A stretch of DNA of 64,000 nucleotides from Malacoraja senta (Eukaryota), in NCBI GenBank assembly GCA_038087875.1, contig CM075987.1:24058001-24122000 (forward strand). Direction: 5' to 3'. Below are positions 297 to 62,630 of the stretch, piece after piece. The translations under genes and the position numbers were made by a program. Numbering within the stretch: position 1 is the stretch's first letter; each line of letters starts with the position of its first letter. A model generated the notes under the pieces. That model saw only the letters and a list, made by a program, of their open reading frames with translations. It had not been told where the DNA came from and made no database searches.

Positions 297-390
297 AGTC
301 TGAAGAAGGTTCTCGACCCAAAACGTCACCCTTTCCTTCTCTCCAGAGATGCTGCCTGTCCCGCTGAGTTACTCCAGCATTTTGTGTCTA
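297..390 (+). mobile_element. Penelope-derived unit with degenerate hammerhead motif
   Basis: CTGAAGAAGGTTCTCGACCCAAAACGTCACC followed by the family tail agagatgctgcctgtcccgctgagttactccagc. Confidence 0.7.
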
Positions 391-1152
391 TTTAAAGAAA
401 GAGTGAGTTACCCCAAAGATGGAAAATTCAATATCATGTCTGGAAGGCCTCAATCTCTCATTCTTTCCGCGGATGCTGAATACAACTGGGTGCATGGGCT
501 GGAGTACAGCATTCTGAGTCTCACATTATGGAGTCTCACAGCGTGGAAACAGGCCCTTTAGCCCAGCTTGCGCACACAGACCAACATGCCCCATCGACAC
601 TAGTCACACCTGTCTACATTTGGCCCATATCCCTGCTAAACCTATCCTACTCCTGTACCTGTTCAAATGTTTTTTTGAACATTGTGATAGTGTTGACAGC
701 CAACGTAAAAAAAAATCATCTTTTCAACTTGATCGCTCTAATTGCCTTTCAAGGTATTAAATACTTATCTGCTAAAGAAATAGTTTGAGCTATTTTCATA
801 TATGAATGCATGAAATGGAAGCTCAGAGAGAGAATAATAAAGCAGATGAAGGGGAGTACTTAATCAAGAAATAAAATAGTTATTAATAAGATTGGGGCAG
901 TTGTCTTAAGGATCATCGTCAAGATGCCAGTCACCCTGTCCATTCCCTATTCCCTCTTTGAATTTCCTCAGGTTCCCCAGCTTTAACCACTTAGATGGTT
1001 CTGGCTTAAACATGCAGCTGAGGTCAGTGACCCTGTTAAAAAGGACAGGCAGCATCACTGGAGAGAAGTAATGGGTAACATTTCGGGTCGAGACCCTTCT
1101 CCAGACTTAACTGGAACTGCCATGTGAAACACATGGCAAAATGCTGTTCCAC

Positions 1153-1563
1153 TGACTCCATTTACACTTCATGCTGCCTTGGCAAGGCCTCAGCATAATC
1201 AAGGACCAGTCTCACCCTGGTCACTCCTTCTTCTCCCCTCTCGCCTCTCCCATCAGGCAAGATATACCGACGTGTGGAAACGCACACCTCCAGATTCAGG
1301 GACAGTTTCTTCCCAGCTGTTATCAGGCAACTGAACCATCCTACCAATAACTAGAGAGCGGTCTCAAACTACGATCTAGCTCACTGGAGACCCTTGGACT
1401 ATCTTTAATCAGACTTTACAGGACTTTCTCTTGCACGAAACGCTAGTCCCTTTATCACGACTCGATTGTAATCATGTATAGTCTTTCCACTCACTGGTTA
1501 GCACGCAACAAAAGCTTTTCACTGTACCTCGGTACAGGCGACAATAAACTAAAATAAACTAAA
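1153..1563 (+). mobile_element. Rex/Babar-like LINE 3' fragment
   Basis: Degenerate ORF2 C-terminus (IIKD..HPGH..F..LPSG..Y...RFRDSFFPAVIRQLN), then AATAAA and a (ACTAA)n tail. Confidence 0.75.
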
Positions 1564-1774
1564 ATGATAAGGAGCGACAGTATCGTTCATTGTTTATTTA
1601 AGTTAGCTTCAATGCTTTTGCTTATTAGCTTGTTTGTGAAAAATCTATATACTTTAATGATATCTTTATTTGTCAACAGTCAGGATAGGAGTATGTTTAA
1701 CATGTCCAAGGATAGTAAAGCATGGGAAGTTGGGGAACTCCTAGGAGTTTCACAGCCATAGCCTCGTCTATTAT

Positions 1775-1961
1775 AGACAAAAATGCTGGAGAAACTCAGC
1801 GGGTGCGGCAGCATCTATGGAGCGTAGGAAATAGGCAACGTCTCGGCCCGAAACGTTGCCCATTTCCTTCGCTCCATAGACGCTGCCGCACCCCGCTGAG
1901 TTTCTCCAGCATTTTTGTCTACCTTCGATTTTCCAGCATCTGCAGTTCCTTCTTGAACAAC
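1775..1961. mobile_element. Fold-back Penelope-derived unit with 14-bp TSD
   Basis: Inverted arms centred on ..aacgtctcggcccgaaacgtt..; GCCTCGTCTATTAT at 1761-1774 and 1962-1975. Confidence 0.8.
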
Positions 1962-2154
1962 GCCTCGTCTATTATGTTATGTTTTCTCACTTCAAATAGA
2001 TATTTGAATTGGTATCCATTTTATTTGATGAAGGTGCACAATCAAAGGTGATATTACTTCATGGCTGTTGTGAATATTAATATTTCTAAACGGGCATAAC
2101 ACTCAATAGACTTTAATTGACAATTAATGCTGAACTGAACACTTTGCTTTTCAG

Positions 2155-3045: not shown

Positions 3046-3083
3046 CATACATAACCTTGTGTTTCACATGGCAGTTCCAGTTA

Positions 3084-3180
3084 GGTCTGAAGAAGGGTCT
3101 CGATCCGAAACGTTACCCATTACTTCTCTTCAGAGATGCTGCCTGTCCCGCTGAGTCACTCCAGCATTTTGTATCTGTCT
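3084..3180 (+). ncRNA. Minimal hammerhead ribozyme motif in Penelope-derived unit
   Basis: GGT-CTGAAGA-A-GGGTCTCGATCC-GAAA-CG-TT-ACC: core, stem II, palindromic mini stem III and 3-bp stem I. Confidence 0.6.
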
Positions 3181-3299
3181 AAGAAATATCCAAAATATTC
3201 GACTTCCATAGTCAATGCACTGACTGATGTCGGCCAATGTACTGAAAGCCTTCTTGACCACCCTCTCTACCTTGACGTCACTTGCAGGAAAATATGTGG

Positions 3300-6997: not shown

Positions 6998-8178
6998 GTA
7001 CCTGTTGCTTCTCTTAACATGTGTAGAGACTTGAACTCAACAAAATAGAAAGCCAATATACAATCTCAGGTGGGGTTCCTTACTTTTTACCTAAACACTA
7101 AGCCTCCAGAAAGCCACGCCCTACTTTAATCTCTCATTGTGTTCTCTGTCTTCCGACACTCCCAGAGTTTTCATTGATGGACGTCTGTGTTTTCAAACTT
7201 CTGTACCTCTTGCCTGATGGCTAGGATCTGTTGAGATTTCTGGGGCATATTCACGGGGAGTCCCAGTTTATTGAGCTGGCACAGGCTTAGCTGCTAGTGA
7301 TCCCTTCCGCCCTTCAGGCAGAGACTGCGGAATCTCGTGTGATTCATCAATGGGCTCTTTGTGGAGTCCAACGGGGCAGCATGGACTCCTGCAGACTTCC
7401 CAGTCTTAAACCTGGCCAAAACCCAGCAAGTCTCTGCAAACGAATGGGAAAGGGGCCATCAGGAGAAAGGTGAGTTTAGTTTCATTATGTACTTATTTTC
7501 AATATCCTAACATTATTAAAATACGTGTGTTTTTATTGCAATCTGCTAATAAAAAGTTTTATATAATATTTTTTTTTTTTAATAGTTTCCAAGTGTTGCT
7601 GAATGTTTGCAAATATCAACAGAATTCACAACCGCTCAAAGCTCCATTAATTTGTCCAACTTTGGCATCCCTTGCACCAGAGAACGGGAGTGGGCAGATT
7701 AGGATTCACCGGCTATCAAAACCGTTCAACGAGTGCGGTGATATAACTTGCCCTGAGATGCAAGGCTCTGCAGGTGCTGGTATCTTTGAGCTAAACAAAG
7801 TGCTGGAGGAATTCGGCGGGTTAGGCAGCATCTGTGGAGTGAATGGATGGATGATTTTTGGGTCGGGACCCTCTGCAGACTTGTCCTGATTTAGCCCCTA
7901 CACTGCGATTCACACACGCCCAAGTACTGACAGTCATACTCACACTCTGAGACAGTGTGTGCAAGTGGCAGGGAACCAGTAAGGTTGTGCCAATGAATAA
8001 TCGGACATAGCCACGGTCTGACAAAGGGTCTCGACCCGAAACGTTACCTCTCCATGTTCTCCAGAGGTGCTGCCAGACCTACTGAGTTACTCCTACACTT
8101 TATATCCTTTTGTGTATTAATAAACATTTGCAGTCTTTGCGTCTACATTTTGACTGCTCCACTGCAAAAGGTACCTTA

Positions 8179-8507: not shown

Positions 8508-8799
8508 TTACTCTTTAAGCTATGCCTACTTTGAAGAAGGTCCTCCCTTTCTCCGACAGGAGTTCTGTGAGACCCTCTCTCACTGTTCCGCCTCTGTGAT
8601 CTCTGCTGCTCTCCCGCTCCATCTTCTGACCTGGACTCGATACCACAGCCGCATGTGTTTCCTCAAAACTTGGCCTGTGCCCTCTATGGGCTCTAAAGAC
8701 GAGTCTCCACCCGAAACATCACCTATCCATATCCTCCAGAGATGCTGTATGTAGGAAGGAACTGCAGAGTCTTGGTTCTTGGTTTCTTGCTCCTCCAAA

Positions 8800-9168: not shown

Positions 9169-9169
9169 T

Positions 9170-9450
9170 GCTAGTTTACACCGAAGATAGACACAAAACA
9201 CTGGAGTAACTCAGCGGGACAGGCAGCATCTCTGGAGAGAAGGAAAGGGTGACGTTCCGGGTCCTCTGAAGAAGGGTCTCGACCTGAGACGTCACCCATC
9301 CCTTCTCTCCCGAGATGCTGCCTGTCCCGGTGAGTTACTCCAACATTTTGTGTCTGTCGCCGGAGCTGCTGCCTGAGCTGCTGAGTTATTCCAGCACTTT
9401 GTGTCCTTTGGTGTATTAAGCAGCAACTTGCAGTTCCTTGTTTCTACATA
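9170..9450. mobile_element. Fold-back Penelope-derived unit with hammerhead motif
   Basis: Inverted arms meet at gtgacgttccgggtcctCTGAAGAagggtctcgacctgagacgtcacc. Confidence 0.75.
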
Positions 9451-11970: not shown

Positions 11971-12470
11971 TAGTTTAGTTTAGTTTATTAATTACGTTTA
12001 TTAGTGTCATGTGGACCGAGGTACAATTAAAAACTTTTTTGTTGCCTGCAATCCAGTCAGCGAAAAGTCTATACATGATCATAAATCAAGTGGTCCACAG
12101 TGTACTGATACAGGATGAAGGAATACCGGATGCAAGATAAAGTCCCGTAAAGTCCGATTGAAGATAGTCCGAAGGTCTCCAATGAGGAAGATTGTAGATC
12201 AGGACTGCTCTCTAGTTGGTGAGAGGATGGTTCGGTTGCCTGTGCTGGGAAGAAACTGCCCCTGAATTCGGAGGTGGACAAAAATGCTGGAGAAACTCAG
12301 CGGGTGAGGCAGCATCTATGGAGCGAAGGAAATAGGCGACGTTTCGGGCGGAGACCCTTCTTCAGACTGAATTTGGAGGTGTGCATTTCCACACTTCTTG
12401 CCTCTTGCCTGATGGGAGCGGGGAGAAGAGGGAGAGACCGGGTTGAGACTCGTCCTAGATGGGTTTTCAT
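11971..12470 (-). mobile_element. Rex/Babar-like 3' fragment carrying a Penelope-derived insert at 12277-12366
   Basis: Insert flanked by CTGAATTYGGAGGTG at 12262-12276 and 12367-12381. Confidence 0.75.
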
Positions 12471-16345: not shown

Positions 16346-16966
16346 ATTTGGTAATAACTGTACAACTCCTCCCCCTTCTGCCGTGGGGTAGACTGACCCC
16401 TTCCTCCCCCTCCCCCACCCCCTCCCCAATCTTTGCACATCCCCCATCATGGACTTTCAACTCGTCACTTTAATTTCATGTTTCACGGACTTTGTTGTGT
16501 TTTATGATTGTTGGCAGATCAATTTCCCTCCTGGATAAATAAAGTTCTATCGTATCGTCTGGTATAGTATCGCATCGTAACGTATCATATCGTAAAGTAG
16601 TCAGTCCAGTTACAGTTAATATTTCAGGAGGTTCACAGATTTCAGGAAGAAGAAAGTATTAGGATTCTCTGTTTAAAAGTCTGACTGGCCTCCGGATTAA
16701 AATTTTATCTCTGTACGATTCGTTGTCAACCCCCCCCCTCGCTAACAATGATCTATTCAACATTTTCCTTGAACTTCGTCCCCTTTCATGTCTCAGTTTC
16801 ACGTGTCTCCCTCTCCCCGACTCTCAGTCTGAAAAAGACTCCTGACCCGAAACGTCAGCCATTTACTACAATCCAAAGATGTCGCCTGTTCCACTGAGTT
16901 ACTCCAACATTTTTGTGTCTAAAAGATAAGAACTATCCATTTAATGGATGAAGCAAGTGTTTTTTT

Positions 16967-17669: not shown

Positions 17670-17894
17670 CAGGTTGACAGGATATGCAATAGTGCAAATC
17701 TGAGGTAACCATCAAATCACCCGCGAACACTTTACAAGGCGGTTCAGGCTCAAGGGGCTGAATGAACCACACCTACTCGTAACTCCTACTGTATGTCCAC
17801 AAACAAACAAAGCACTTTGAGTGTCAGCCGGTTAAAAAACAAGGGGAAGTAGCATCAGTAAGAGTTAATCACTCTACCACTAAATCAGGACAAA

Positions 17895-18300
17895 AGACAG
17901 ACACAAAATGCTGGAGTAACTCAGCGGGTCGGGCAGCAACTCTGGAGAAAAAGGACGGGTGATGTTTCGGGTCAGGACCCTTCTGCAGACTGAAAGTAGA
18001 GTGGAGGGAACTGGAGGTCAGAAAAGGCCAGAACAACGCAGGGACGGCAACAGATGACCAAGGAAGGGTGGAGCCCATCATGGCACATTGTTGGCTGGGG
18101 AAGAGGTAATAACAAAGGTTTACAAGGATGTGAAGAATGGAACTAGTAGGGTGACTAGGGCGAAGGGGGGGAGAGGGAGGGGGGGGGGAAGAGAGGGAAT
18201 GCAAGAAATCAATGTTCATTCCGCTGGGTCGTAAGCTGCCAAGGCGAAATATGAGGTGCTGTTCCTCCAATTTGCGTGTGGCCTTACTCTGACAGTGGCC
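17895..18300 (-). mobile_element. Penelope-like element 3' fragment (GIY-YIG endonuclease C-terminus plus terminal unit)
   Basis: RKLEEQHLIFRLGSLRPSGMNIDF, followed downstream by a degenerate CTGCAGAAGGGTCCTGACCCGAAAC motif. Confidence 0.8.
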
Positions 18301-20929: not shown

Positions 20930-21365
20930 TTCAGTATTGATTTAGAGATACAGAGTGGAAACAGGCCCTTCGACCCACTGGGTCCGCGCCAACCAACAAT
21001 TACATGTACGCCAGCACTATCCTACACACCAGGGACAATGTACAGATGCCAATTGTCCTACAAACCCGCCTGAGGAAGTTGTTCTGACCCGGAACGTCAC
21101 CCATCCATTTTCTCCAGAGATGCCGCTTGACCCGCTGAGTTACTCTGGCGCTTTGTGTCTGTCTGTAAGCCAGCATCTGCATCTCCTTTCTACCCGACAA
21201 ACCTGCACGTCTTTGGAGTGTGGGAGGAATCCGGAGATCCCGGAGGAAACCCACGCAGGTCACGGGGAGAAGGTACAAACTCTGTACAGAGACGCCACCC
21301 GTAGTCAGGATCGAACCCGGGTCTCTGGTGCTGTAAGGCAGCAACTCTACCGCTGCGCCACCGTA
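20930..21365 (-). mobile_element. HE1-like V-SINE with Penelope-derived insert (about 21068-21192)
   Basis: SINE resumes after the insert with a short imperfect duplication (cctacaaacc/ccgacaaacc). Confidence 0.75.
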
Positions 21366-23650: not shown

Positions 23651-24999
23651 CGAAAGTGCACACTTGCACAATTTAGGCCATGCAGGAAAGACTGAAATAT
23701 ATTGACTTTGTTTCTCTTCTCTCATTCAATGTGAACTCCATTACACCATTAATTGCAAAAGAAAATCAGCGCTGATCCAGTTATCTGTCCAATAAGCAAT
23801 GTGTCAATTTGTCAAATACTGCAAAGGTTTTGGAAATATGCTGCACTTTGTGTTAAGATTTATTTATCTGTAATATAAATGGACTTGGATAGTCGACCTT
23901 TCCCCAACTCCAATTTAACTGTGATATCAGCAGAGAAAAGACTCTTGCTGAAAATACCACAAGAGGCACAATACTGTTCGAAATTCATCGGCTGTCCTTC
24001 AACGCATTTTTTGTCCTCACCAACATCTGGGAAAATGACAGATGTCACAGCTCTGATGTCACATGCTACGTTGAGCATTTGACGGCACTGGGCCTGTGCT
24101 CGCTGGAGTTTAGAAGGATGAGGGGAGACCTCATTGAGCCTTACTTAATAGTGAAAGGCCTGGATAGAGTGGAGGTGGAGGGGATGTCTAGGACCAGGGG
24201 CCATAGCCTCAGAATAAAAGGACGTACCTTTAGAAATTAGATGAGGAGGAATTGCTTTAGTCAGAGGGTGGTGAATCGGTGGAATTAATTGCCACAGACT
24301 CCTTTGGAGGCCGACTCATTGTTGCATGTCTCAAAGTAATTGTCATGTCATAAGTGATAGGAGCAGAATAAGACCACTCGGCCCATCAAATCTATTCCAC
24401 CATTCAATCATGGTTGGTCTATCTCTCCCTCCTAACCCCATTCTCCTGCCTTCTCCCCATAACCCCTGACACCCGTACTAATCAAGTTCTTGCCTCCAGT
24501 TTATTCCTCACCCCCACCTCACCTCTACCCTCACTCTGAAGAAAGGTTCCGACCCAAAAAATATTTTCCTATTCTTTTTCCAAAAGAATCCTATTCTTTT
24601 TCCCCAGAAATGCTGCCTGACCTGCTGAGTTGCCCCAACATTTGTGTCTATCTTCAGAATTAACAAACCCTGGTTAATCCTACAAGATTCCTGAGCCTGT
24701 TCTCAGGGATATCTCAGTTGAGACCTGAGGATATCAGTTCATCGATTCATCACCGAAGTCCCATAGCAATAAAATGATTATAATGTAACTATAATATATA
24801 TTTCTGTAATATTTCTAAAACATTCCATGAATTATAGCAAACAGCTTCAACCTTTACATTTTCATACATTGGCAAGGAAATCATGTGTAAATATTGAGAA
24901 AAACCTTTTGCAAATAACTAGCTGTTCCTCTAAAATATTTAGGTTTAAATAGTGATCATCTAGAACTCGACTGAGAAGGAATGCTTAGTGTTTGGTATC

Positions 25000-33420: not shown

Positions 33421-33598
33421 AGACACAGAAAGCCGGAGTAACTCAGCGGGACAGGCAGCATCTTTGAAGAGGAGGAATGGGTGACGTTTCGGGTCGAGAC
33501 CCTTTTTCAGACTCGACCCGATACGTCACCCATTCCTTCTCTCCAGATGCTGCCGGTCCCGCTGAGTAAACCAGCATCTGCAGTCCTTTCCTACACAC
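33421..33598. mobile_element. Fold-back Penelope-derived unit with 14-bp TSD
   Basis: TTACCTATTATGAT at 33407-33420 and 33599-33612. Confidence 0.8.
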
Positions 33599-38855: not shown

Positions 38856-39242
38856 CTGAAAGTAAACAACTACAAAACACAATAATGTCAGCAAATAAGT
38901 TTTTATTAAAAAAATTTAACACACCAAATGAATCAGTAATTAACATGTTAGGTTTTATTATGTTTTCATAATACGCAACCCACATCAGAACTATCAAACT
39001 GATAAAGTAAACAAGTTATAAATATAGGGAAAGTTAAATCGAGCTAGATTTGAAATAGAGGTAGATTTGGCGGAGTAAAATTAAAGAGCGTATTTTTTTA
39101 ACTAGTGCAGTGTAAACGCAAGGTGATTGCATTATATTGCACAAGGTTGTGGCTTCGAAGATTCAGACTGCTATTACAGGGCAGAGCTTTTATCAGTAAT
39201 GGTTTGTTCATGCTCACTGCTGGCAAAGAAGGCCACACAGGA

Positions 39243-39817
39243 CAGACACAAAAAGCTGGAGTTACTCAGCGGGTCAGGCAGCATCTCTGGGGAAAAGGAA
39301 TAGGTGACGTTTCGGGTCGAGACCCTTCATCAGGCTGAGAGTCAGAGAGGGGGGACTCTAGAGATATGGGAAGGTCCATAACTAATCAGAGCCAGCATCG
39401 CTCGCTCAGGAAAGGCGGAGCCCACAATGGTCCATTGTTAGCTGTGTGCGAGGTAATGACGAAGGAAAACAGGCGTTGAAATTAGCAAGAGGACTAGGGT
39501 GGGGGCAGAATGGAGAGAGAGGAAATACAAGGGTTGTTTGAAGTTAGAGAAATCAATGTTCATACCGCTGGGTTGTAAGCTGCCCAGGTGAAATATGAGG
39601 TGCAGTTCCTCCAATTTAATTGTGGCCTCACTCAGACACTCTGTTCCTTCCGATATCTCTAGTTTCCCCCTCCCTGACTCTCAGTCTGATGAAGGGTCTC
39701 GACTCGAAACGTCACCTATTCCTTGTCTCCAGAGATGCTGCCTGATCCGCTGAGTTACTCCAGCATTTTGTGTCTATCTTCAGTGTAAACCAGCATTTGC
39801 AGTTCCTTCTTACACAT
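39243..39817. mobile_element. Penelope-like fragment with inverted terminal units and a GIY-YIG remnant
   Basis: CTGATGA hammerhead motifs at 39303-39335 (-) and 39683-39716 (+); KLEELHLIFHLGSLQPSGMNIDF on - at about 39550-39620; TSD ggccacacagga/ggctacaaagga. Confidence 0.85.
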
Positions 39818-40427
39818 GGCTACAAAGGAGTCAACTTGGTGACCAAAGCAAACCTAACCCAAATATTAAAGTCCTGTACATGCGATTATAATGTACTGGG
39901 CTAAAACAGGCTGCTGCATCCATGAAACAGTCGACAATTCTTTGAAACATAAAATACAAAATTGCTGGAAGTACTCAAAATCTCCAGGCAACAGTTAGAG
40001 TCAGAGTCACACAGCATGGAAACAGGCCCTTCAGCCCAACTTGTCCACGCCGACCAACATACTGAAACATACAGAATAGTGAAAGGCTTGTATCGAGTGG
40101 ATGTGGAGAGGATGTTTCCACTGGTGGCAGAGTCTGGGACCAGAGGTCATAGCCTCAGAATTAAAGGACGTTCTTTGAGGAAGGAGATGAGGAGGTATTT
40201 CTTTAGTCAGAGGGTGGTGAATTAGTGGAAGGCTGTGGAGGCCAAGCCAGTGGATATTTTTAAGGCAGAGATAGATTTATTCTTGATTAGCATAGGTGTC
40301 AGAGGCCATGGCGAGAATGCAGGAGCATTCCTCCTAACCATGATAGATCAGCCATGATTGAATGGCGGAGTAGACTTGATGGGCCAAATGGCCTAATTCT
40401 ACTCCTATACCTTATGACTTTATGATA

Positions 40428-42058: not shown

Positions 42059-43233
42059 TATCTGATCTGATTGCAAAGCATGCAGACAAAAGCTTTTCAC
42101 TGTGCCTCGGTACATGTGACAATAAACCTAAACCTAAGTTCTGACAAAGGGTTAACTTGGTTTCACTTTTCACTTGCACTGCCTGACCAGTGTTATGCAC
42201 TCTTATTTCAGATTGCCACATATACAGTACTTAGCTTTTGGATGCAGCTTTAGTAGCCTGGCTATGTCACATCCCAACCTGACCTCAGCACTGAGGAAAT
42301 TGTGCATAAGCCTGCAGAATAAAATTTGCAACCTGGTGCTTGCTTTCCAATTCCATTATTTATTGGAGAGCTGTCAACGTTGTCAAGGACTTTGGATGCT
42401 TTTTGAATGTCTTCACAAACATAGAAAAATCATTAAAAATCAATTAACTGATTGAAAGAATACAACAACAAAAAATTAAACTAAACCTAAATCACTTCAA
42501 AACACTTTCCACAATTAAAAACGTCAAACAAAACTCAATTAATTTAATAAAATGCGAATTTCCCTTTTGCAGTCCCTTCTCACTGACCGCATTTCTCCGC
42601 ATTCACTTGAATGACTTTACTGTGCATGCACCAGTGTCTCTACCACTGTGGTGTGACTAAGAACTCACTGGTGGGACTCAGCCGGTAAGTTTGAGACCTG
42701 GGTACTTGTGCAGAAGTCCCAAATTTCCTGCCCCATAGGAACATATAGGAACCTGAGGGGGTAACTTTTTCACACAGAGGGTGGTGGGTATACGGAACGA
42801 GCTGCTGGAGGTCATAAGGTCATAAGGAATAGGAGTAGAATTAGGCCATTCGGCCCATCAAGTCTACTCCGCCATTCAATCGTGGCTGATCTATCTCTCC
42901 CTCCGAACCCCATTCTCCTGCCTTCTCCCCATAACCTCTGACACCTGTGCTAATCAAATCAAAGAGGTAGTTGGGGCAGGGACTATCGCAACGTTTAAGA
43001 AACACTTTGACAGGTGCATGGATAGTACAGGTTTAGAGGGATATGGGCCAACTGCAGGCTGGTGGGACTAGTGTAGATGGGACATGTTGGTTGGGGGGGG
43101 CAAGTTACATTGTAAATGGATCGATTGTAATCATGTATTGTCTTTCTGCTGACCGGTTAGCACACAACAAAAGCTTTTCACTCTACCTCGGTATCCGTGA
43201 CAATAAACTAAACTGAACTAATCTCTATTCCTA

Positions 43234-43460
43234 GATAGACACAAAATGCTGGAGTAACTCAGTGGGACAGGCAGCATCTCTGGAGAGAAGGAATGGGTGA
43301 TGTTTCGTGTCGAGACCCATCATCAGTCTGAAGAAGGGTCTCGCCCTGAAACGTCACCCATTCCTTCTCCCCAGAGATGCTGCCCGTCCTGCTGAGTTAC
43401 TCCAGCATTTTATGCCTATCTTCGATTTAAATCAGAATCTGCAGTTCTTTCCTACACATT
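43234..43460. mobile_element. Fold-back Penelope-derived unit with 13-bp TSD
   Basis: Arms meet at ..catcagtCTGAAGAagg..; ATCTCTATTCCTA at 43221-43233 and 43461-43473. Confidence 0.85.
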
Positions 43461-45900: not shown

Positions 45901-46004
45901 TGAACACACGGTGCTGGAGTTACACAAAGACACAGCAGAAATTTGGAAATGTCATCCCATCACCCATTCCTTCTCTCCAGAGATGCTGCCTGCCCGCTGA
46001 GTTA

Positions 46005-49942: not shown

Positions 49943-50888
49943 TTAGTGTGTGGGGATCGCTGGTCGGCGCGGACCCAGTGGGCTGAAGGGCCTGTTTCCA
50001 GCCTGTATCTCTAAACTAAACTGAAGAGCTCAAGTTGTACTATCAGCGGTAATGTATACTTGCATGCACAAAATGTACACCATCCGCAATGATTATGTTG
50101 TGTTTTTATTTTATCTTGTTTCCTTTTAAAGTGGTAGATGTTTCCCAGAATATGGGTGCAGAGACTTCATAAGCTTTATTCGAGAAAACTTCGCCAGTAT
50201 CCACATTCCTCTTCTATTTTATTTATTCAGTTTTTGGTCCTGGACATTACTGCAGAACCAGCATCCTTGAATTAGTTTAGTTTAGTTTAGAAATACACCT
50301 TAGGCCTACAGCGACCAGCGATCATCCATTCACACTAGTTCCATGTTATTCCACTTTCACATCCTGCACACTAGGATAATTTACAGAAGCCAATTAGTTT
50401 AGTTTAGAGATTTAGTTCAGTGATACAGTGTGGAAACAGGCCCTAAGGCCCACTGAGTCCATGCCAACCATCGATCACCCATTCACCAGTACTATGTCCT
50501 ACACACAAGCCACTTAAACTACAGACATGCACATCTTTGGAATGTGGGAGGAAAGCGGACCACCCCGAGAAAACCCACGTGGTCACAGGTAGAACGTGCA
50601 AACTCCGCACCGACATCACCCATAGACAGGATCGAACTTGGGTTTTTGCCGCAGAGAGATACCAGCTCTACTGCTGCGCCACTGTGCCCCAAATGACTGG
50701 CTTTCTGGGTAATTTCAGCGAGTAGAGAATATTTAAGAATCAACCGCACATATTGTCTGAAGGCACACATCGGCCAAACTGAGCAAGTATGGTAGATTTT
50801 CTTTAGTGAATAAATTGGGTTTCATAGGTCGCTACAAAATACTGGAGTAACTCAGCGGGACAGGCAGCATCTCTGGAGAGAAGGAATG

Positions 50889-50922
50889 GGTGACGTTTCG
50901 GGTCGAGACCCTTCTTCAGACT
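50889..50922 (-). ncRNA. Consensus minimal hammerhead ribozyme motif
   Basis: Minus strand AGT-CTGAAGA-A-GGGTCTCGACCC-GAAA-CG-TC-ACC. Confidence 0.6.
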
Positions 50923-51603
50923 GGTTCGTAGAACTAATCATTTGTTTTTCATAAGTTCTTAAGTTATAGGCATGCACCTTCAGCAACAGACTGGTTCCAC
51001 CAAGAGGCAGTACAGAACGCCACAGGAGATCCCTTTTCCCTGTGGCTCTCAAACTGTACAACTCCTCCCCCTTCTGTCGTGGGGTAGACTGACTCCTCTT
51101 CCTCCACCCCCTCCCCAATATTTGCTTGTCCCCAAACCTGGACTTTCCACTCATCGTTTTAATTTCATGTTTCACGTATCTTCTTGTGTTTTTCATGACT
51201 GTTGGAAGACTACTTTCCCTCCTGGGATAAATAAAGTTCTATCGTATCGGATCGGATCATATAGGAATAGAATGAGGCTATGCTGCCCATCAAGTATACT
51301 CCGCCATTCAATCATGGCCGATCTATGTTTCCCTCTCGACACCATTCTCCTGCCTTCTCTCCATAACCCTTGACACCCAGAATAATCAAGAATCTATCAA
51401 TCTCCTCCTTAGAAATATCGATTGTCTTGGCCTCCACAGCCGTCTGTGGCAATGAATTCCATAGATTCATCACCCTCTGACTAAAGATTTTATACCTCAA
51501 TTAAAAATGTCTGGATTAATTGAAATGAAATGTGAACTCAGCACTCCAAATGGCGAATCCAAGTAACTGGGTCTTTTTGAGTCCATGGAGCAGTACTTTA
51601 AAC

Positions 51604-56459: not shown

Positions 56460-57526
56460 ATTATAGCCCTCACTGTTCTTTCCCCAACAACGGGTTTTTT
56501 AGACCACAATACCTTGAAGAGATGGATCTAAGCTGCAAATATTTAGCCCATTCCAGCACATTTAGTGTTTAACCATTCCATATGCCACTGATTTGTGGAA
56601 CTGGAAATGTATCAATTGCTTGACAAGTTACTATAAAAGAGTCACTGCTGTTGTATCTGCCGATGTACTTAGTTAAACCTTAGTTCAGTTAATGGACCTT
56701 ACAAGTAATGGATACAATTCTCCACAGGGAGTTGAACACGCTTCATATAAAACAGATAGCAAGTATTAAAATGCCCTCTATTCTTATTATAGCATCATAA
56801 AGTGTCAAGTAGGTGAAATCCTATTCAAGTTTACAATAAGATTGAAATCAATCTCAAGCAACTAAAGGGAATTGATAGTGGTAACAATAAAACTGAAAAC
56901 TCATTGCTCTCCTATCGATGTATTTTATATTCAGTGCTTTGTCAATCCTTTCTACAAACATAGAGAATTTTATTAACAGCCCGCTTGTATATTCAGTATG
57001 TTAAGATCAAATAAAGCAGTTTTAATTGCCCATTACGTTCGAGTCGATACAAGTTAATGATTCATGTTCATTTTAAAAACCCAATCTTATTGACTTGTGA
57101 GTGCAACCCAAAGTTGGTCTGATCGTTTCCCTTATCCCAAGCTGGTCTGAAGAAGGGTCTCGACCCAAAACGCCACCCATTCCTTCTCTCCAGAGATGCT
57201 GCCTGTCCCTCTGAGTTACTCCAGCTTTTTGTGTCTCTCTTTGTTTTAAACCAGCATCTGCAGTTCCTTCCTACACATTTTGTCTGCTCCGCTGCGAAAT
57301 CTCCTCAAGGTATGTCGACTTTGAATAAGCTCTCCTCCTCCCTCCGACAAGAGTTCTGCGTCTATATCTCTTTTCCCTAACGAGTCTGAAGAAGGGTCTT
57401 GACCCGAATCGTCACCCATTCCATCTCACCAGTGATGCTGCTGTGTTACTCCAGCTTTTTGTGTCTATCTCTGATTTTATCCACTTCTTTGCATCCAGGA
57501 CATATATATGTATGTGTAACATTTCT

Positions 57527-57822: not shown

Positions 57823-59199
57823 ATATCAGATCACATCTCTACGGAATCATTCTGATTGGGGTGAAGCTGTGAGCCACTGGGTCTCGACCCGAAATGTGAG
57901 TTTTCTTCGATTGATTGAAAGAGCCATCCTGCAGCCTACAGCCTACAGCCCAACAGCCAACAGGCTATTACTCAGTACAACATCCATCAAGCGCTGATCT
58001 TCGTAGACTATTATTGTTATTATTGCATTATCATTGTTTTTAGGTGTACGCATGTGTGCGTATGTATATATATATATATATATATACATACGCACACATG
58101 CGTTCACCTAAAAACAATGATAGTGTAATAACAACAATAATGGGTGACGTTTCGGGTCGAGACTCTTCTTCCGACCCAAAACATCACCCATTCCTTCTCT
58201 CCAGAGATGCTTCCTGTCCCGCTGAGTTACTCCAGCATTTTGTGTCTATCTTCGGTGTAAACCGGCATCTGCAGTTCCCTCCTTGAGCTACTTTCCTTTA
58301 CAGGGCATAATCATTACTCTGCATCTCATACAACACAGACCCTGTCCATAAACATATAAATATATAAGATTATAATCGTTATGGATCTTCCACTTTTCCC
58401 CCCTCTTCCCCTGTTGGTTTTACTTCCTGAACTAACATAAAAACAATATAAAATTATCCAAAACGGTTAACTATAAGGTTTGCTTTCCAACATTAGGTAC
58501 GCCAATGATCAATTTGACTAATAAAACTTTTAGGAATCTATGGATTAATTCTGCTTTTCTAAAAGGTAGCCTTTTTTAGGACTTTCATGAAGGCTCATAA
58601 TATCAGAATTTCATAAAGTCAAAAGGAGAGGTACATTTTGAAGAGACGATAGAAAGAAAGCTTTCAATTCAAAAGATTATCAATGTTTATAAAACTCTGT
58701 CAGAACAGCAGTCAAGATCTTTGCTTGCAAAATGGCATTTCACCATCACCCCCACCCAAGCTCACCGCAGCAATTCCTTTACACTGTTAAGTCACTTTCT
58801 GTTCTCACTTCAAAATATTAAAACCTTTTTACCTCATTCGCACTTCCCTGCAATATTCTATTTCGGTTCACAATTTCTGCAGACCCAAGTTCTAATTCTA
58901 TTCCCATGTGGAATTAATTCATAGCAACGTAGTAAGAAATATATCCTTGAGGATATATTTGTTTTCTGCTTGGAAAGATTTGCAGGCTTCCAAGTTGAAG
59001 GATTTGTCCTCCTTTATAAGTCAGATTCAAAAACACAACCATCCAAGATTCTGTTCAATTGGAAATTATGTTGTTTATATATATGTTTATATATTTTTCT
59101 TCAGAGGGTGACGAATCCGTGGAATTTTTTGCCACAGAAGGCTGTAGAGGCCAAGTCAATGGATATTTTTAAGGCAGATTAGTATGGGTGTCAGGGGTT

Positions 59200-59500
59200 C
59201 TAATGAAGGACCCCTACCACCCCAGCAACGGACTGTTCCAGCTGCTACGGTCAGGCAAACGCCTCCGCTGTCACGCTGCGAAAACAGAGAGGATGAGACG
59301 GAGTTTCTTCCCACAGGCCGTCAGGACTGTAAACTCTAATCTCACCAGGGACTAATTTACTGTTGTGCTTTAAAACAAATGTAAATTCTGGTTCTGTTCT
59401 GTAACTGTTGTTCTGTTGTTTTGCACAATCCCGCAGGCATTGCCACTTTCGTTTCACTGTACATCTTGTATGTGTATGTGACAAATAAAGTTGACTTGAC
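59200..59500 (+). mobile_element. Rex/Babar 3' fragment nested in a CR1 fragment (about 59095-59578)
   Basis: KDPYHPSNGLFQLLRSGKRLR..RMRRSFFPQAVR; host gtcaggggtt|atggggagaagg is split. Confidence 0.8.
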
Positions 59501-60267
59501 TTATGGGGAGAAGGCAGGAGAATGGAGTTAGGAAGGAGAGATAGATAAGCCAAGATCGAATGGCGGAGTGGACTTGAGTAGAAATTTTAAAATGACTTCC
59601 GTGAAATGGGCTTAATTTTTAAATAAAATGTTCACAGCCGACCACTAAATTAAAACGGCCAGCTCCTTGTTTCTTTTTACACCACAATAGTGAGCGACCG
59701 TTACTATTCCTGTTGCTCATTATAAGCCTGGTGGTTATTTGGCTGGAATGACGCTATACCCTAGATAGCTAAAAACCACAGATGTCCCGAGCAACGCAGC
59801 AAATGATATATGTTCTGTCATAGCTGTGGTCCTCGTGAGATATTACACAGTAAGTCTTCCCATAAGTAGCACACAAATAACATCACCACATTCATCACAC
59901 CATGAAATTCTAATGAAGTCATGGACAAGCTGACATCATTAGTGAATAATAAAGACTCGGAATATTTATACATTAGGTCAATGAAGATATTATCAATTAA
60001 TCCTGATGTGACAATCATGTGTAGTTTGAATTGCATCAATATTAGTTCGATTGATTTATAACAAAGGCCTTTTAGGATCACTCTTAATGTTACAATTTAT
60101 AAATCTCCACTAGGTGGTGATAGGGTATTCTTTGATAATCTCTCTATACCATACAAAGCCAACAGCCATTTCAACATCAGACGTTCCCAACTCAATTGAT
60201 GTTAGTTGGTACAAATTTGAAGTTCCTCAAAAATATGAATTATTGAAATACTCTTTACATGAATACC

Positions 60268-60685
60268 TCAGAGTGAAGCCCAACGCAAATTGGAGGAACA
60301 GCACCTCATATTTCGCTTGGGCAGCTTAAAACACAGTGGTATGAATATTGACTTCTCTAACTTCAAGTAACCCTTGCTTTCCCTCTCTCTCCACCCCTCT
60401 CCCATCCCAGTTCTCCGACCAGTCCGACTGTCCCCTTGATTAAATCTTTATCTTTGTATGCCTCGTTGTCCCCTTCCCCAGCTAGCAACGATCTATTCTA
60501 CATTTTCCTTGAACTTTGTCCCCTTTGATGTCTCGTTTTCACACCTTCCCATTCTTTATCTCTGTGTCTCCCTGTCCCCTGACTCTCAGTCTGAAGAAGG
60601 GTCTCGACCCTGAAACGTCACCTATTCCTTCTCTCCAGAGAAGCTGCCTGTCCCGCTGAGTTACTCCAGCATTTTGTGTCTAACT
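60268..60685 (+). mobile_element. Penelope-like element 3' end: GIY-YIG C-terminus, UTR and hammerhead motif
   Basis: SEAQRKLEEQHLIFRLGSLKHSGMNIDF; CTGAAGA-AGGGTCTCGACCCT-GAAA-CG-TC-ACC at 60591-60622. Confidence 0.85.
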
Positions 60686-62235
60686 TCATTTTAATTTAAT
60701 TGGCTCTATGTAAAGGAGGCATAATTTCAAGGCATAATTAAAACCTGTCTGAAGAAGGGTTCCGACTGGAAATGTCACCTATTCCTTTTCTCCAGGTATA
60801 CTGCCTGAGCCACTGAGTTTTACTCCAAAATTGTGTGTCTATCTTCGGTATAAACCAGCATCTGCAGTTCCTTCCCACACAGTAAAATAAATGAATTGTT
60901 CACTGAATTAACATAGCTTCAAAATTAATCAAACTGTTATATACAAATACAAATATCAATGCATTCTCCACAAATTAGTTATTTTTCCTATCCAAAGGTG
61001 GTGTTAAATGACCTTTGGAATCAAATGCCATGCAGGTTTGATCCAGTAGTAACTTTCTACAAGGACAGTAGATCAATATTTCTATGTCACTGCTGTTGTA
61101 TTTTATTGGCATTAATTCTTTAATATATTACAGATACACACAGAAATGATTATGATTGTTATAACAAAACATGCTTTGATCTCACTTAATTCAGAATAGT
61201 TAAAGATAAAATTTTAGTTACAGATGACGGGGAAATTTCCTTTCCATTAATGCGGTTAACATTGTGTACTGTACAATTTTGCAATGCTGCTGTATAAAGT
61301 AAAATTCATGAACTTAGGCTGCATTTATCTTGCTATAATTCGCTAACTGAGGCATTTTCCTCGAGCATTACATGCCCAGTAAGGTCAAAAAACATTCTGG
61401 GGCTCAAATAACCGTTTATCTGTTAAGTCATCAAATATCAAATGAGCAAAAACAGAAAGATGGGCAGTGAGTGATCAGCAACACGACCAGCGAAAAAAAT
61501 ATTTCTATTCTTTGTTATAATTCATGAACAATCAAGTTAGATCATGTGATTTTTTTTCACCCTGCACCTGATGCCCAGTTTTTGCTTACAATCAGGGCCA
61601 AGAACTTGGCTGAAAATAAGTGGAGTCCATCTCAAATGTACAAGCTTGGCATTTGATGGAATATGCTCCACTTGCCTGATGAGGACAAGCTCCAACAAAA
61701 CACAGGAAGGTTGATTCCATCTGAGAGTAAAGAGTCGCTCTGGGCAGCAGGGTGGCACAGTGTCAGAGTCCCGGGTACCATCCTGACCACGACTACCCGA
61801 AACGTCACCTATTCCTTCGCTCCATAGATGCTGCCTCACCCGCTGAGTTTCTCCAGCATTTTTATCTACCTTCGATTTTTCCAGCATCTGCAGTTCTTTC
61901 TTAAACTCTTAAGCTTTATGTAAAGGAAGCTTTATTCCAAAGAATAATGCTAGTGTGTGGGGATCACTGGTCAGTGCGGGACGGTATCTCTAAACTAATT
62001 TAAACTAAAAATTAAATTAAATTAAACTAAAGTAAATAAAGATCTTCCTTTATTATGAATTGATTGAGTCAATTTAAATATAATTATTTTAAAAGGCTTT
62101 TATTTTTCATTTTCATAAAACTTTAAAAAAAATAACAAATTTCAATATCATGTTTAACTTTTAATACGTTGAATATTCGCAAATGATTATAATTGTCGGA
62201 GGCATTTCAAGGTATCTCCTCAAGGTATGCCTGCT

Positions 62236-62630
62236 TGCCCAGAGTAGGTGAATCGAGGACCAGAGAGCAGAAGTTTAAGGTGAAGGGGCAAATATTTAAT
62301 AGGAATCTGAGGGTTACTTTTTAGTAAAAGGTGTTGCATGAATGGAACGAGCTGCCAGATGAGGTCATTGAGGCAGGGACTATATCCAACATTTAAGAAG
62401 CAGTTAGACAAAAATGCTGGAGAAACATAGCAGGTGAGGCAGCATCTATGGAGCGAAGGAATAGGTGATGTTTCGGGTCGAGACCCTTCCTAAGAAGCAG
62501 TTAGGCAGGTACATGGATAGGACAGGTTTGGAGGGATATGGAGCAAATGCTGGCACTTGGGACTAGTGTAGCTGGGACATGTTGGTCAGTGTGGGCAAGT
62601 TGGGCTGAAGGATCTGTTTCCACACTATAA
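62236..62630 (+). mobile_element. CR1 3' fragment with Penelope-derived insert 62408-62490
   Basis: TAAGAAGCAGTTAG at 62394-62407 and 62491-62504. Confidence 0.8.

What the first reader, a model, noticed from the sequence alone, without database searches (positions are those of the whole stretch)
297..62490. Dispersed family of tiny retro-mobile units carrying a minimal hammerhead ribozyme motif
Seen: the motif [A/G]GT-CTGA(A/T)GA-A-GGGTCTCGACCC-GAAA-CG-TC-ACC recurs on both strands. Copies with an intact core are at 3084, 36987(-), 39303(-), 39683, 50889(-) and 60588. Degraded copies are at about 300, 1075, 8017, 9266, 12335, 16828, 24536, 43327, 57144, 57383, 58141, 60749 and 62463. Established: CUGANGA-stem II-GAAA-NUH is the hammerhead core, and Penelope-like elements carry minimal type I hammerheads whose short palindromic stem III (here ACGU) is thought to work as a dimer. 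Seen: the motif lies directly downstream of GIY-YIG remnants (60268-60685, 17895-18300, 39243-39817), yet many copies are only 80-230 bp units with their own TSDs. Inference: a high-copy, non-autonomous ribozyme-bearing retroelement family mobilised by Penelope machinery.
Basis: partly seen in the sequence, partly recalled or inferred. Interest (0 to 1): 0.85.

Follow-up and report, generated by a model that had tools for sequence, protein, structure and literature searches.

The report
Penelope retrotransposon tails carrying minimal hammerheads
The repeated motif is real and matches the minimal hammerhead ribozyme already described in Penelope-like retrotransposons; the tiny dispersed units are the terminal 90-137 bases of that retrotransposon, copied about a million times, which is a striking amount but a known kind of element.

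Summary
The motif occurs 20 times in the window (0 in shuffles) inside a 90-137 bp unit with 37 copies. Genome-wide, 70,581 copies keep both core boxes, against 74 for the control. The extrapolated total is about 1.1 million units.

The motif has every text-described feature of the published PLE "min-HHR". These are the extra base after A9, the G10.1-C11.1 pair, an ACGU palindrome in place of helix III, and GUC. It lies about 200 nt downstream of a GIY-YIG endonuclease C-terminus, on the same strand.

The units are independent insertions, shown by enriched TSDs and one paralogous empty site with a 16-nt duplication. They carry PLE insertion signatures: two 3' ends about 35-40 nt apart (the "tail"), head-to-head inverted pairs, and heavy truncation.

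Of 110 copies, 55% end exactly at the hammerhead's 5' edge. Only 5 of 110 start at the predicted cleavage site, so templates were copied uncleaved.

I found no evidence that the short units form a lineage of their own. No Rfam model hits, there is no covariation, and helix I is only 2-3 bp. Ribozyme activity remains untested.

Verdict: a new, very abundant member of a known kind.

The parts
296..391 (+). unit copy, degraded core (GAAA box mutated), short 3' end
1046..1107 (-). unit copy, A6 mutated, 3'-truncated
1773..1954 (.). head-to-head inverted pair of a divergent subfamily (1773-1845 minus, 1840-1954 plus), both arms truncated inside the HHR
   Evidence: palindrome also seen as sub-threshold miRNA-like Rfam hit
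3085..3180 (+). unit copy with intact strict min-HHR at 3087-3114 (GUU site)
7795..7881 (-). divergent unit copy, core degraded
8016..8134 (+). unit copy, long 3' end, G8 region mutated
8692..8747 (+). degraded partial unit
9169..9442 (.). inverted pair (9169-9263 minus, 9265-9358 plus) followed by a partial tandem piece (9355-9442 plus)
12277..12370 (-). ~90-bp unit with intact min-HHR (12338-12365) inserted into another repeat; 16-nt target-site duplication shown by a paralogous empty site
16805..16921 (+). unit copy continuing upstream into PLE UTR; core degraded
17894..18288 (-). 5'-truncated PLE copy: endonuclease C-terminal remnant (18187-18288), ~200-nt UTR, then HHR unit (17894-18016; A6 mutated to C)
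21070..21192 (+). divergent unit copy, long 3' end, 7-nt TSD candidate
24590..24657 (+). degraded unit with internal insertion
26144..26226 (+). divergent unit copy, A6 mutated
31663..31740 (-). unit truncated inside the HHR
33418..33597 (.). inverted pair (33418-33513 minus, 33512-33597 plus) joined inside stem II
36916..37018 (-). solitary unit with intact min-HHR (36990-37017), flanked by 7-nt TSD GTTAAAT
39241..39632 (-). 5'-truncated PLE copy: endonuclease C-terminal remnant (39531-39632), UTR, intact min-HHR (39306-39333), short 3' end
39650..39830 (+). copy abutting the previous one head-to-head; short piece of UTR, intact min-HHR (39686-39713), long 3' end
43233..43459 (.). inverted pair (43233-43331 minus, 43323-43459 plus) joined at the HHR 5' boundary
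45960..46004 (+). fragment beginning about one base before the predicted cleavage site
50834..50923 (-). solitary ~90-bp unit with intact min-HHR (50892-50919)
57145..57278 (+). solitary unit, long 3' end; G12 mutated
57383..57470 (+). solitary unit, short 3' end, degraded core
58139..58281 (.). inverted pair with unequal arms (58139-58175 minus, 58172-58281 plus)
60272..60694 (+). 5'-truncated PLE copy: endonuclease C-terminal remnant (60272-60373), ~218-nt UTR, HHR unit (60591-) with a 1-nt insertion before GAAA
60747..60881 (+). separate unit copy 50 nt downstream, long 3' end, stem II degraded
61795..61906 (+). unit of the divergent subfamily, truncated inside the HHR
62402..62495 (-). unit copy, core degraded (CUUAGGA)
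63339..63371 (+). small fragment of the unit's middle part

Best explanation
The dispersed units are the terminal (pseudo-LTR) segment of one old, extremely prolific Penelope-like retrotransposon (PLE) family. Each unit starts with a minimal type I hammerhead motif of the kind already described for PLEs: CUGAAGA, one extra A, a 4-bp stem II with a tetraloop, GAAA, and an ACGU palindrome in place of helix III, with cleavage expected after GUC.

Shown here:
- The unit follows the PLE endonuclease ORF and a ~115-220 nt UTR on the same strand.
- The units are separate insertions with variable TSDs.
- Their 3' ends fall in two classes about 35-40 nt apart.
- Many sit head-to-head in inverted pairs.
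- 55% end exactly at the first bases of the hammerhead.

Inferred mechanism, by analogy with the Anolis PLE studied in vitro:
1. The PLE reverse transcriptase binds RNA just downstream of the hammerhead.
2. It starts copying internally at either of two sites, which gives the short and long 3' ends.
3. [quoted passage not shown]

The sharp 5' edge is most simply the 5' end of the RNA. My preferred reading is a transcription start in the pLTR, at the A of TCAGTC three bases before CUGA. A PLE transcript that begins there and carries the RT entry site 90-137 nt downstream therefore yields a tiny retrocopy. Priming from both cut DNA strands gives the inverted pairs. Jumping from the template's 5' end gives rare 50-nt tandem arrays.

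The hammerhead was not used before copying, because almost no insertion begins at the cleavage site. Most units are probably dead-on-arrival by-products of PLE activity rather than a self-propagating family.
For: Motif and abundance:
- 20 window matches against 0 in shuffles; 37 unit copies in the window.
- 13,276 exact 31-mers against 0 for the control.
- 70,581 matches to CTGANGA-N11-17-GAAACGTC against 74 for the control.
- 110 copies in 191,648 sampled bases.

min-HHR features (146 distinct copies), matching the features listed in Cervera & de la Pena 2014 (whole text read):
- The extra base after A9 is A in 136 of 146.
- G10.1-C11.1 in 107 of 146.
- Palindromic 15.2-16.2 in 88 of 146.
- UH in 134 of 146.

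PLE link:
- The endonuclease ORF with the CxxC...YIGET...EH motifs, then a stop, a UTR and the unit, on one strand in genomic loci.
- Pfam GIY-YIG E=7e-4.
- A 487-aa frame with RVT_1 followed by GIY-YIG.
- Atlas clusters RT + GIY-YIG + HTH_animal, score 0.98.

Independent insertion:
- A paralogous empty site with a 16-nt TSD.
- TSD of 7 nt or more in 10 of 39 against 2.4% of permuted pairs.

PLE signatures:
- 3' ends 54 against 29 in two peaks about 35-40 nt apart. This matches the optional 30-40 bp tail between two RT start sites (Frangieh 2024, main text read; Craig 2021, passages).
- 5 inverted pairs among the window copies, and 9 of 60 boundary-class copies abutted head-to-head. This matches the 'inverted 5'-truncated copy' and priming from both DNA strands.

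Sharp 5' end:
- 60 of 110 end at the boundary and 18 of 110 continue into the UTR.
- 49 of 63 upstream flanks are unrelated to PLE sequence.
- The 50-nt array always returns to the unit's first base.
- D. virilis Penelope has a TATA-less internal Inr/DPE promoter with its TSS in the pLTR (Schostak 2008, passages).

Not cleaved before copying: 5 of 110 5' ends lie within 3 nt of the cleavage site, with no spike. [quoted passage not shown]

No separate lineage: same 3'-end usage (p=0.40) and no column diagnostic for the short units.
Against: - No full-length PLE was recovered. So it is not shown that the unit also stands at the 5' end of a complete element, or that a promoter lies upstream of it.
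- The transcription-start reading rests on a recalled Inr consensus and on analogy. No RNA data could be read.
- Both Pfam domain scores are below the curated cut-offs.
- For the ribozyme itself: no Rfam hammerhead model scores, even on 181-400 nt stretches.
- Stem II shows essentially no compensatory change: 4 double-changed cells in 146 copies x 4 pairs.
- The core is only marginally better conserved than the non-ribozyme part (0.91 against 0.86).
- Helix I is 2-3 bp: 3 of 3 pairs in only 7 of 146.
- The monomer MFE fold pairs part of the core with the sequence after the cleavage site, and the unit is not unusually stable (z=-1.4).
- The comparison of short and PLE-linked units is low-powered (85-91 columns). 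It is also biased, because the PLE-linked loci were picked by similarity to two queries. Boundary-class units look older (median 0.105 against 0.055, p=0.007), which may only reflect that bias.
Confidence: 0.75

Rival explanations
1. The 90-137 bp units are a true non-autonomous retroelement family (a minimal retrozyme or SINE-like parasite). It has its own master copies, is transcribed from an internal promoter at its first base, and is mobilised in trans by PLE proteins.
For: - There is a discrete 5' end in 60 of 110 copies, and only 18 of 110 are linked to a PLE UTR.
- The units carry both presumed RT entry sites.
- D. virilis Penelope and Drosophila LINEs use internal Inr/DPE promoters that lie downstream of +1. 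The unit begins with AGTC of an Inr-like TCAGTC. By my recall of the DPE consensus, it also has a 4-of-5 match at +28 to +32.
- The 2026 preprint argues that PLE termini give rise to non-autonomous HHR elements.
Against: - No substitution is diagnostic for short units, and 3'-end usage is the same as for ORF-linked units.
- No RNA evidence is available.
- Promoter motifs are recalled, not tested.
- The same pattern is expected if every PLE pLTR fires short transcripts.
Confidence: 0.18
2. The hammerhead-like motif in this family is not a working ribozyme. It is retained for another role, such as core promoter, RT/protein binding site or template-end structure, or it is a decaying relic of an ancestral PLE hammerhead.
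For: - Insertions show that templates were uncleaved (5 of 110 at the site).
- Helix I is 2-3 bp, and a competing fold is more stable.
- No Rfam hit.
- No covariation.
- Published min-HHRs cleave poorly in vitro.
- The Anolis PLE HHR needs protein and is dispensable for insertion.
- PLE clades without HHRs proliferate well.
Against: - All invariant core positions are present in the majority sequence.
- All text-listed min-HHR hallmarks are present.
- A chance match is very unlikely (0 hits in controls).
- HHRs are universal in canonical PLE clades.
- The Anolis motif does cleave with C3/G8 dependence.
Confidence: 0.3
3. The sharp edge is the fixed 3' end of a LINE/SINE on the opposite strand, and the ragged far end is ordinary 5' truncation. 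The hammerhead resemblance would then be on the antisense strand and meaningless.
For: One edge is fixed and the other variable, which superficially fits LINE/SINE insertion.
Against: - The unit is collinear with, and downstream of, the RT-endonuclease ORF on the hammerhead strand in dozens of loci.
- The 'ragged' end is in fact two discrete peaks.
- Inverted pairs are joined at the hammerhead end.
Confidence: 0.02
4. The sharp 5' edge comes from splicing. The sequence before the unit (a pyrimidine tract then CAG) is a 3' splice site, as in D. virilis Penelope where an intron ends at helix I, and the units derive from spliced RNA.
For: The pyrimidine-rich ...CCCCTGACTCTCAG precedes the unit in ORF-linked copies. 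In D. virilis the intron ends at the 5' end of helix I.
Against: - Solitary units share no upstream 'exon 1': 49 of 63 flanks have no similarity to PLE copies, and the rest are mostly inverted partners or the tandem array.
- TSDs abut the unit directly.
Confidence: 0.03

Closest known systems
Minimal hammerhead ribozymes (min-HHRs) of Penelope-like elements (Cervera & de la Pena 2014, PMC4209133)
   Same: - Type I topology and the CUGANGA and GAAA boxes.
- An unpaired base between A9 and G10.1, and the G10.1-C11.1 pair.
- No helix III, only a palindromic 15.2-16.2 step (ACGU).
- Location in the PLE flanking repeat.
- Thousands of dispersed single copies attributed to truncated PLEs.
- Dual motifs on opposite strands 100-700 bp apart.
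   Different: - Helix II here is 4 bp with a tetraloop (7-8 bp in Schistosoma, 6 bp in D. virilis).
- Helix I is 2-3 bp (4-5 bp typical, 2 bp in D. virilis).
- One nearly uniform sequence family rather than many covarying families.
- About 70,000 intact core matches in a 1.9-Gb genome, against about 4,000-9,000 in the 'remarkable' coelacanth and Xenopus cases. The descriptors differ.
Poseidon PLE of Anolis carolinensis, PAc (Frangieh et al. 2024, PMC11167929)
   Same: - The HHR lies at the end of the pLTR.
- Reverse transcription starts internally about 110-120 nt downstream, at two adjacent sites.
- There is an optional 30-40 bp tail.
- Uncleaved RNA is the substrate.
- No reads or insertions begin at the HHR cut site.
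- Both DNA strands are cut and extended.
   Different: - In PAc the ORF starts inside the HHR. Here the frames through the unit close after 17 codons or fewer, so the unit is non-coding (my reading of the sequences).
- Nothing here is tested biochemically.
Metazoan non-LTR retrozymes (Cervera & de la Pena 2020, PMC7229834; Li et al. 2026 preprint)
   Same: Non-coding HHR-bearing repeats that co-occur with PLEs and resemble PLE pLTRs. Monomeric dispersed derivatives exist, and the smallest reported consensus length is 51 bp.
   Different: - Retrozymes are defined by tandem arrays with canonical HHRs (loop-loop contacts) and by circular RNA.
- Here copies are overwhelmingly solitary and the HHR is minimal.
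- Tandem arrays (50-nt period) are rare: 54 exact junctions genome-wide.
- No circRNA evidence could be sought.
5'-truncated LINE copies and SINEs
   Same: Very high copy number, TSDs, and dependence on a retrotransposon's RT and endonuclease.
   Different: - No poly(A) or LINE-type tail.
- Two discrete internal RT start sites.
- Head-to-head inverted pairs.
- No Pol III promoter recognised.
- A fixed 5' end rather than a continuum of truncations.

Membership tests
Hammerhead ribozyme, PLE min-HHR variant | Conserved core boxes C3-U4-G5-A6-N7-G8-A9 and G12-A13-A14-A15.1 | tested here: met
   Present in the majority sequence. CUGANGA is intact in 105 of 146 copies and GAAA in 94 of 146. Genome-wide there are 70,581 matches with both boxes against 74 for the control.
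Hammerhead ribozyme, PLE min-HHR variant | Helix II closed by the G10.1-C11.1 pair, with an unpaired base between A9 and G10.1 | tested here: met
   G10.1-C11.1 in 107 of 146; 4 of 4 stem II pairs in 98 of 146. The extra base is A in 136 of 146.
Hammerhead ribozyme, PLE min-HHR variant | No helix III; palindromic 15.2-16.2 step allowing a dimeric helix III; cleavage triplet U16.1-H17 | tested here: met
   ACGU followed by C or U. Palindromic step in 88 of 146 (losses are CpG decay); UH in 134 of 146.
Hammerhead ribozyme, PLE min-HHR variant | Helix I of about 4-6 bp between the strand before C3 and the strand after the cleavage site | tested here: not met
   Three pairs in only 7 of 146 and two or more in 99 of 146. 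Only the D. virilis variant is reported with a 2-bp helix I.
Hammerhead ribozyme, PLE min-HHR variant | Covariation supporting the helices | tested here: inconclusive
   Essentially one sequence lineage: 4 double-changed cells in stem II among 146 copies, and all 100 listed genome matches share one stem II. Loop variants keep the stem.
Hammerhead ribozyme (Rfam families) | Match to a curated hammerhead covariance model | tested here: not met
   No hammerhead hit at gathering score, or at E up to 10, on the whole window, on a natural tandem array or on an intact solitary copy. This is expected for a motif without helix III.
Hammerhead ribozyme | Site-specific self-cleavage | not testable with these tools
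   Indirect test: 5 of 110 insertions begin within 3 nt of the site, with no spike. So templates were uncleaved. This does not exclude cleavage at another stage.
Penelope-like element (canonical EN+ PLE) | Single ORF with a reverse transcriptase followed by a C-terminal GIY-YIG endonuclease | tested here: met
   The 487-aa frame in L071 has RVT_1 (E 1.9e-5) then GIY-YIG (E 5e-4), both below Pfam cut-offs. GIY-YIG alone gives E 7e-4. The nearest atlas clusters carry RT + GIY-YIG + HTH_animal, score 0.98.
Penelope-like element (canonical EN+ PLE) | Optional 30-40 bp tail / two RT initiation sites at the 3' end | tested here: met
   Bimodal 3' ends about 35-40 nt apart: 54 and 29 of 110. Definition.
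Penelope-like element (canonical EN+ PLE) | Heavy 5' truncation and inverted 5'-truncated copies abutting the 5' end | tested here: met
   92 of 110 copies lack any UTR/ORF, and 9 of 60 boundary-class copies are abutted head-to-head. There are five inverted pairs in the window.
Penelope-like element (canonical EN+ PLE) | pLTR-ORF-pLTR (partial tandem) organisation of full-length copies | tested here: inconclusive
   No full-length copy lies among the 74 held loci.
Non-LTR retrozyme | Tandem repeats, each monomer with a canonical type I HHR, expressed as circular RNA | tested here: not met
   Copies are solitary. One 6.5-copy array was seen, and its junction occurs 54 times genome-wide. The HHR is minimal, not canonical. 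CircRNA is not testable.
SINE | Internal Pol III promoter (tRNA, 7SL or 5S head) and a LINE-derived tail | not tested
   No tRNA, 7SL or 5S Rfam hit overlaps the units in the window scans. No dedicated test was made.

The most novel reading that the evidence does not exclude
The 90-137 nt unit is a complete, self-sufficient micro-retroelement. Transcription starts at its first base from an internal Inr/DPE-type promoter that overlaps the hammerhead core, and the PLE reverse transcriptase enters at its last bases. Every solitary copy can then seed new copies. The hammerhead sequence would be kept because it doubles as core promoter and protein-binding site rather than as a cutter. This would be among the smallest retro-mobile units known, at about a million copies.
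Probability: 0.15. Interest if true: 0.6.

Novelty: new member of a known kind. Interest (0 to 1): 0.3.

Why it matters
The biological role of the hammerheads carried by Penelope-like elements is still unknown. This genome offers an unusually large natural data set:
- about 70,000 motifs with intact core boxes;
- on the order of a million insertions (my extrapolation from 192 kb), roughly 5% of a 1.9-Gb genome.

The insertion end-points act as a fossil record of the RNA templates. They say that templates began at the hammerhead's first bases, that copying started at two fixed internal sites, and that the ribozyme had not cut. This independently agrees with the only biochemical study of a PLE.

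That is useful confirmation and a good system for CAGE or cyclic-phosphate sequencing. It does not reveal a new kind of element.

Tried and rejected
- Rfam at gathering score and at E up to 10 on the window, and on two short stretches: no hammerhead hit.
- Pfam on 40 window ORFs: no GIY-YIG. Only a LINE-type fragment at 19828-20328 was found. The endonuclease was found only after reading frames by eye and moving to genomic copies.
- Opposite-strand LINE/SINE tail: rejected by ORF orientation.
- Spliced-leader origin of the 5' edge: rejected, as there is no shared upstream sequence.
- RT stalling at the ribozyme fold: considered unlikely. A block would be met at the 3' side of the structure, and truncations inside the motif are spread evenly.
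- First census: superseded. Its exclusion zone let targeted copies in, and its single reference under-called UTR continuity (seen). One search replaces it. The row labels of the TSD examples were misaligned, and one search replaces them.
- RNA evidence: no RNA holder listed, and only assembled contigs are served.
Flanks of the held loci were used instead.
- Search for a full-length PLE among held loci: none.
- Literal sequence search of the paper library with 4 strings: 0 papers.
- Earlier notes of this scan: none.
- Lunse, Weinberg & Breaker (RNA Biol): the paper is not held. I know it only from its citation and a review's summary.
- Supplementary figures of Cervera 2014 (the descriptor and alignments) were not consulted.
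- Dfam/Repbase comparison: no such library is available here.

Full report

Yes. The pattern CTGANGA-N-GGGTCTCGACCC-GAAA has 20 matches with up to 3 mismatches on both strands, against none in 100 dinucleotide-preserving shuffles.

A strict descriptor asks for CUGANGA, one base, four paired bases closed by G10.1-C11.1, a 4-nt loop, GAAA, a palindromic dinucleotide and UH. It finds six intact motifs:
- 3087-3114(+)
- 39686-39713(+)
- 12338-12365(-)
- 36990-37017(-)
- 39306-39333(-)
- 50892-50919(-)

It finds none in the reversed sequence or in 200 shuffles. The copy at 60588 has a one-base insertion before GAAA. The copy at 12335, listed as degraded, is intact.

The window lies in a 1.94-Gb genome. 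There the exact 31-mer occurs 13,276 times (0 for the reversed control). The looser pattern CTGANGA-N11-17-GAAACGTC occurs 70,581 times (74 for the control).

**2. Anatomy of the unit**

Alignment of the window copies with flanks shows that the motif is the first part of a unit of up to about 137 bp.
- One edge is sharp and lies 0-3 bases before CTGA.
- The other edge falls either near ...TGTCTATCT, about 90-100 bp from the start, or about 35-40 bp further on at an AC-rich end.
- Five pairs of copies are inverted and joined at the CTGA end: 1773/1840, 9169/9265, 33418/33512, 43233/43323 and 58139/58172.

**3. Link to a Penelope-like element**

Three window copies carry the peptide ...RKLEEQHLIFRLGSLxPSGMNIDF... 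about 200 nt upstream on the same strand, at 60272-60373(+), 18187-18288(-) and 39531-39632(-). These are only the last ~34 residues of a domain. Pfam found nothing in the window ORFs.

Genomic copies fetched with the upstream DNA show the full domain, with ...IYCIRCSRCGLLYIGETKRRLGDRF.EH....
- It matches Pfam GIY-YIG weakly: E 7e-4, 20.3 bits against a cut-off of 22.6.
- A 487-aa open frame in locus L071 has RVT_1 (E 1.9e-5) upstream of GIY-YIG (E 5e-4).
- Its nearest protein-atlas clusters carry reverse transcriptase, GIY-YIG and HTH_animal, with a score of 0.98.

An RT followed by a C-terminal GIY-YIG nuclease is the architecture of canonical PLEs. The genome has about 95,000 first-look candidates for this nuclease domain. 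The ORF, a UTR of about 115-220 nt and the unit are collinear on the hammerhead strand. This rules out the idea that the sharp edge is the 3' end of an element on the other strand.

**4. Census of ends**

I therefore used the window plus the outer flanks of the held loci, excluding the targeted central copies. My first census was flawed: its exclusion zone was too narrow and its single reference under-called UTR continuity, as one search showed. The corrected census found 110 copies in 191,648 bases. That is 0.57 per kb, or about 1.1 million by extrapolation.

| 5' end class | Copies of 110 |
|---|---|
| End at the hammerhead's 5' boundary with no PLE UTR upstream | 60 |
| Truncated inside the unit | 32 |
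| Continue into the UTR | 18 |

The 3' ends form two peaks of 54 and 29 copies, about 35-40 nt apart.

Upstream flanks of boundary-class copies are unrelated to PLE sequence in 49 of 63 cases. The others are mostly inverted partners or one tandem array. So there is no shared spliced leader.

**5. Are they separate insertions?**

Yes.
- The unit at 12277-12370(-) interrupts another repeat that is continuous in locus L069. The 16 nt at the junction are duplicated on both sides.
- Across 39 boundary-class copies, the longest exact match between the two flanks is 7 nt or more in 10, against 2.4% of permuted pairs. It is 9 nt or more in 3, against 0.07%.
- Examples of 10, 11 and 15 nt were seen, and the 7-nt GTTAAAT at 36916-37018.

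**6. Comparison with the literature**

Cervera & de la Pena 2014 (whole text read) defined min-HHRs of PLEs. Their hallmarks not imposed by the search are:
- a base between positions 9 and 10.1;
- a conserved G10.1-C11.1 pair;
- a palindromic 15.2-16.2 step with no helix III.

All three are met here. They also report:
- thousands of dispersed single motifs 'probably related to truncated PLEs';
- dual motifs on opposite strands;
- very low cleavage in vitro, and only as dimers.

Frangieh et al. 2024 (main text read) studied an Anolis PLE.
- Reverse transcription starts internally at two adjacent sites about 110-120 nt beyond the HHR region. This explains the optional 30-40 bp 'tail'.
- Both DNA strands are cut and extended.
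- HHR mutants insert normally.
- The HHR cleaves only with protein present.
- No reads begin at the cut site.

Craig et al. 2021 (passages) list three features as general for PLEs: heavy 5' truncation, an inverted 5'-truncated copy abutting the 5' end, and the tail. Schostak et al. 2008 (passages) found a TATA-less internal promoter of the Inr/DPE type, with its start site in the pLTR of D. virilis Penelope. Li et al. [quoted passage not shown]

The window's features therefore match published PLE behaviour point by point.

**7. The ribozyme question**

Of 146 distinct copies spanning the motif, 46 keep all core boxes, the palindrome and at least 3 of 4 stem II pairs. CpG decay accounts for much of the loss.

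Points that weaken the case for an active ribozyme:
- Core positions outside CpGs are only slightly better conserved than the non-ribozyme part of the unit (0.91 against 0.86). This is expected for neutrally decaying copies.
- There is essentially no compensatory change in stem II.
- All 100 genome matches listed share one stem II.
- Helix I is usually only 2 bp (AGU against ACC).
- No Rfam hammerhead model scores, even on short stretches.
- The unit is not unusually stable (z -1.4).
- In the predicted monomer fold, part of the core pairs with the bases after the cleavage site.

A direct, if indirect, functional read-out comes from the insertions themselves. If templates had been cut, copies should start at the base after GUC. 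Only 5 of 110 do so within 3 nt, with no spike there, against 54 of 110 at ref 644-652, the unit's first bases.

Solitary copies also lack a partner for a dimeric helix III. The junction of the one tandem array seen (6.5 copies of 50 nt, L048) occurs only 54 times genome-wide.

**8. Mechanism**

Shown:
- collinearity with the PLE ORF;
- TSDs;
- two 3' end classes;
- a fixed 5' end;
- inverted pairs;
- rare arrays that always return to the unit's first base.

Inferred:
- The PLE RT enters the RNA at either of two internal sites and copies to the RNA's 5' end.
- The fixed 5' end is that RNA end.
- It is most simply a transcription start at the A of TCAGTC. The Inr consensus is recalled, not tested, and the analogy is.
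- Short retrocopies arise whenever the RT engages the entry site nearest a 5' end.
- Longer RNAs (read-through or tandem) give the 16% of copies with UTR or ORF.

**9. Own lineage or by-product?**

Short and ORF-linked units use the two 3' ends in the same proportion (29:11 against 41:24, p = 0.40). No column is diagnostic for the short units.

The test is weak. It has 85-91 columns, and the ORF-linked loci were chosen by similarity to two queries. That choice probably also explains their lower divergence (median 0.055 against 0.105).

I therefore favour by-products of PLE activity, but I keep the self-propagating micro-element as the most novel reading not excluded.

**10. What could not be done**
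- No full-length element was found among the held loci.
- No Dfam/Repbase library is available.
- The Lunse et al. paper is not held.
- No paper in the library prints this family's sequence (0 hits for 4 strings).

**Verdict**

It is unproven, and probably overstated, about an independent non-autonomous family.

This is a very abundant new member of a known kind. Its end-points give a useful natural record that agrees with recent PLE biochemistry.

Noticed in passing
window 58018-58133: A near-perfect 116-nt palindrome centred on a (TA)n run, directly beside the inverted unit pair at 58139-58281. It gives sub-threshold hits to many miRNA precursor models on both strands (best mir-5014, 73.8 bits against a gathering score of 101). 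It looks like a low-complexity foldback, not a gene.
   Followed up: no
window 19828-20328 (+): A 167-aa open frame matches Pfam ALKBH8_N (E 7.6e-11). From recall, this domain often marks the C-terminal part of LINE reverse transcriptase ORFs, so this is probably a LINE fragment unrelated to the PLE.
   Followed up: no
window 50396-50690 and about 30 other places (for example 11542-11849, 23340-23651, 27776-28013, 36038-36354): A second abundant dispersed repeat of about 300 bp, 67-84% identical between copies and unrelated to the hammerhead unit.
   Followed up: no
L070, L072, L073, L074 against L069:3879-3882: Four of five longer PLE copies begin at the same point, about 890 nt before the stop codon (near the peptide YYKPTD.HSYLDY). 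This suggests a second preferred 5' end or a shorter sub-element.
   Followed up: no
L048:1-327: A 6.5-copy tandem array with a 50-nt period, made of the first 50 nt of the unit (hammerhead plus 20 nt) and followed by the rest of a normal unit. The junction 26-mer occurs 54 times at dispersed genome sites. One search also lists two exact 31-mers only 38 nt apart on contig C1.
   Followed up: partly
L013:1215-1250 (locus coordinates, plus strand): The 5'-truncated end of a PLE copy is capped by a reverse-complement piece of the unit's long 3' tail. This may be the 'tail at either end' described for PLEs.
   Followed up: no
window 43681-43880: A run of 200 N (assembly gap or masked stretch) about 220 bp downstream of the inverted pair at 43233-43459.
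   Followed up: no
window 1046-1136 and 3055-3180: Two unit copies in opposite orientation share about 30 nt of identical upstream flank (...GTGTTTCACATGGCAGTTCCAGTTA...). They may be a composite repeat or a local duplication rather than two independent insertions.
   Followed up: no
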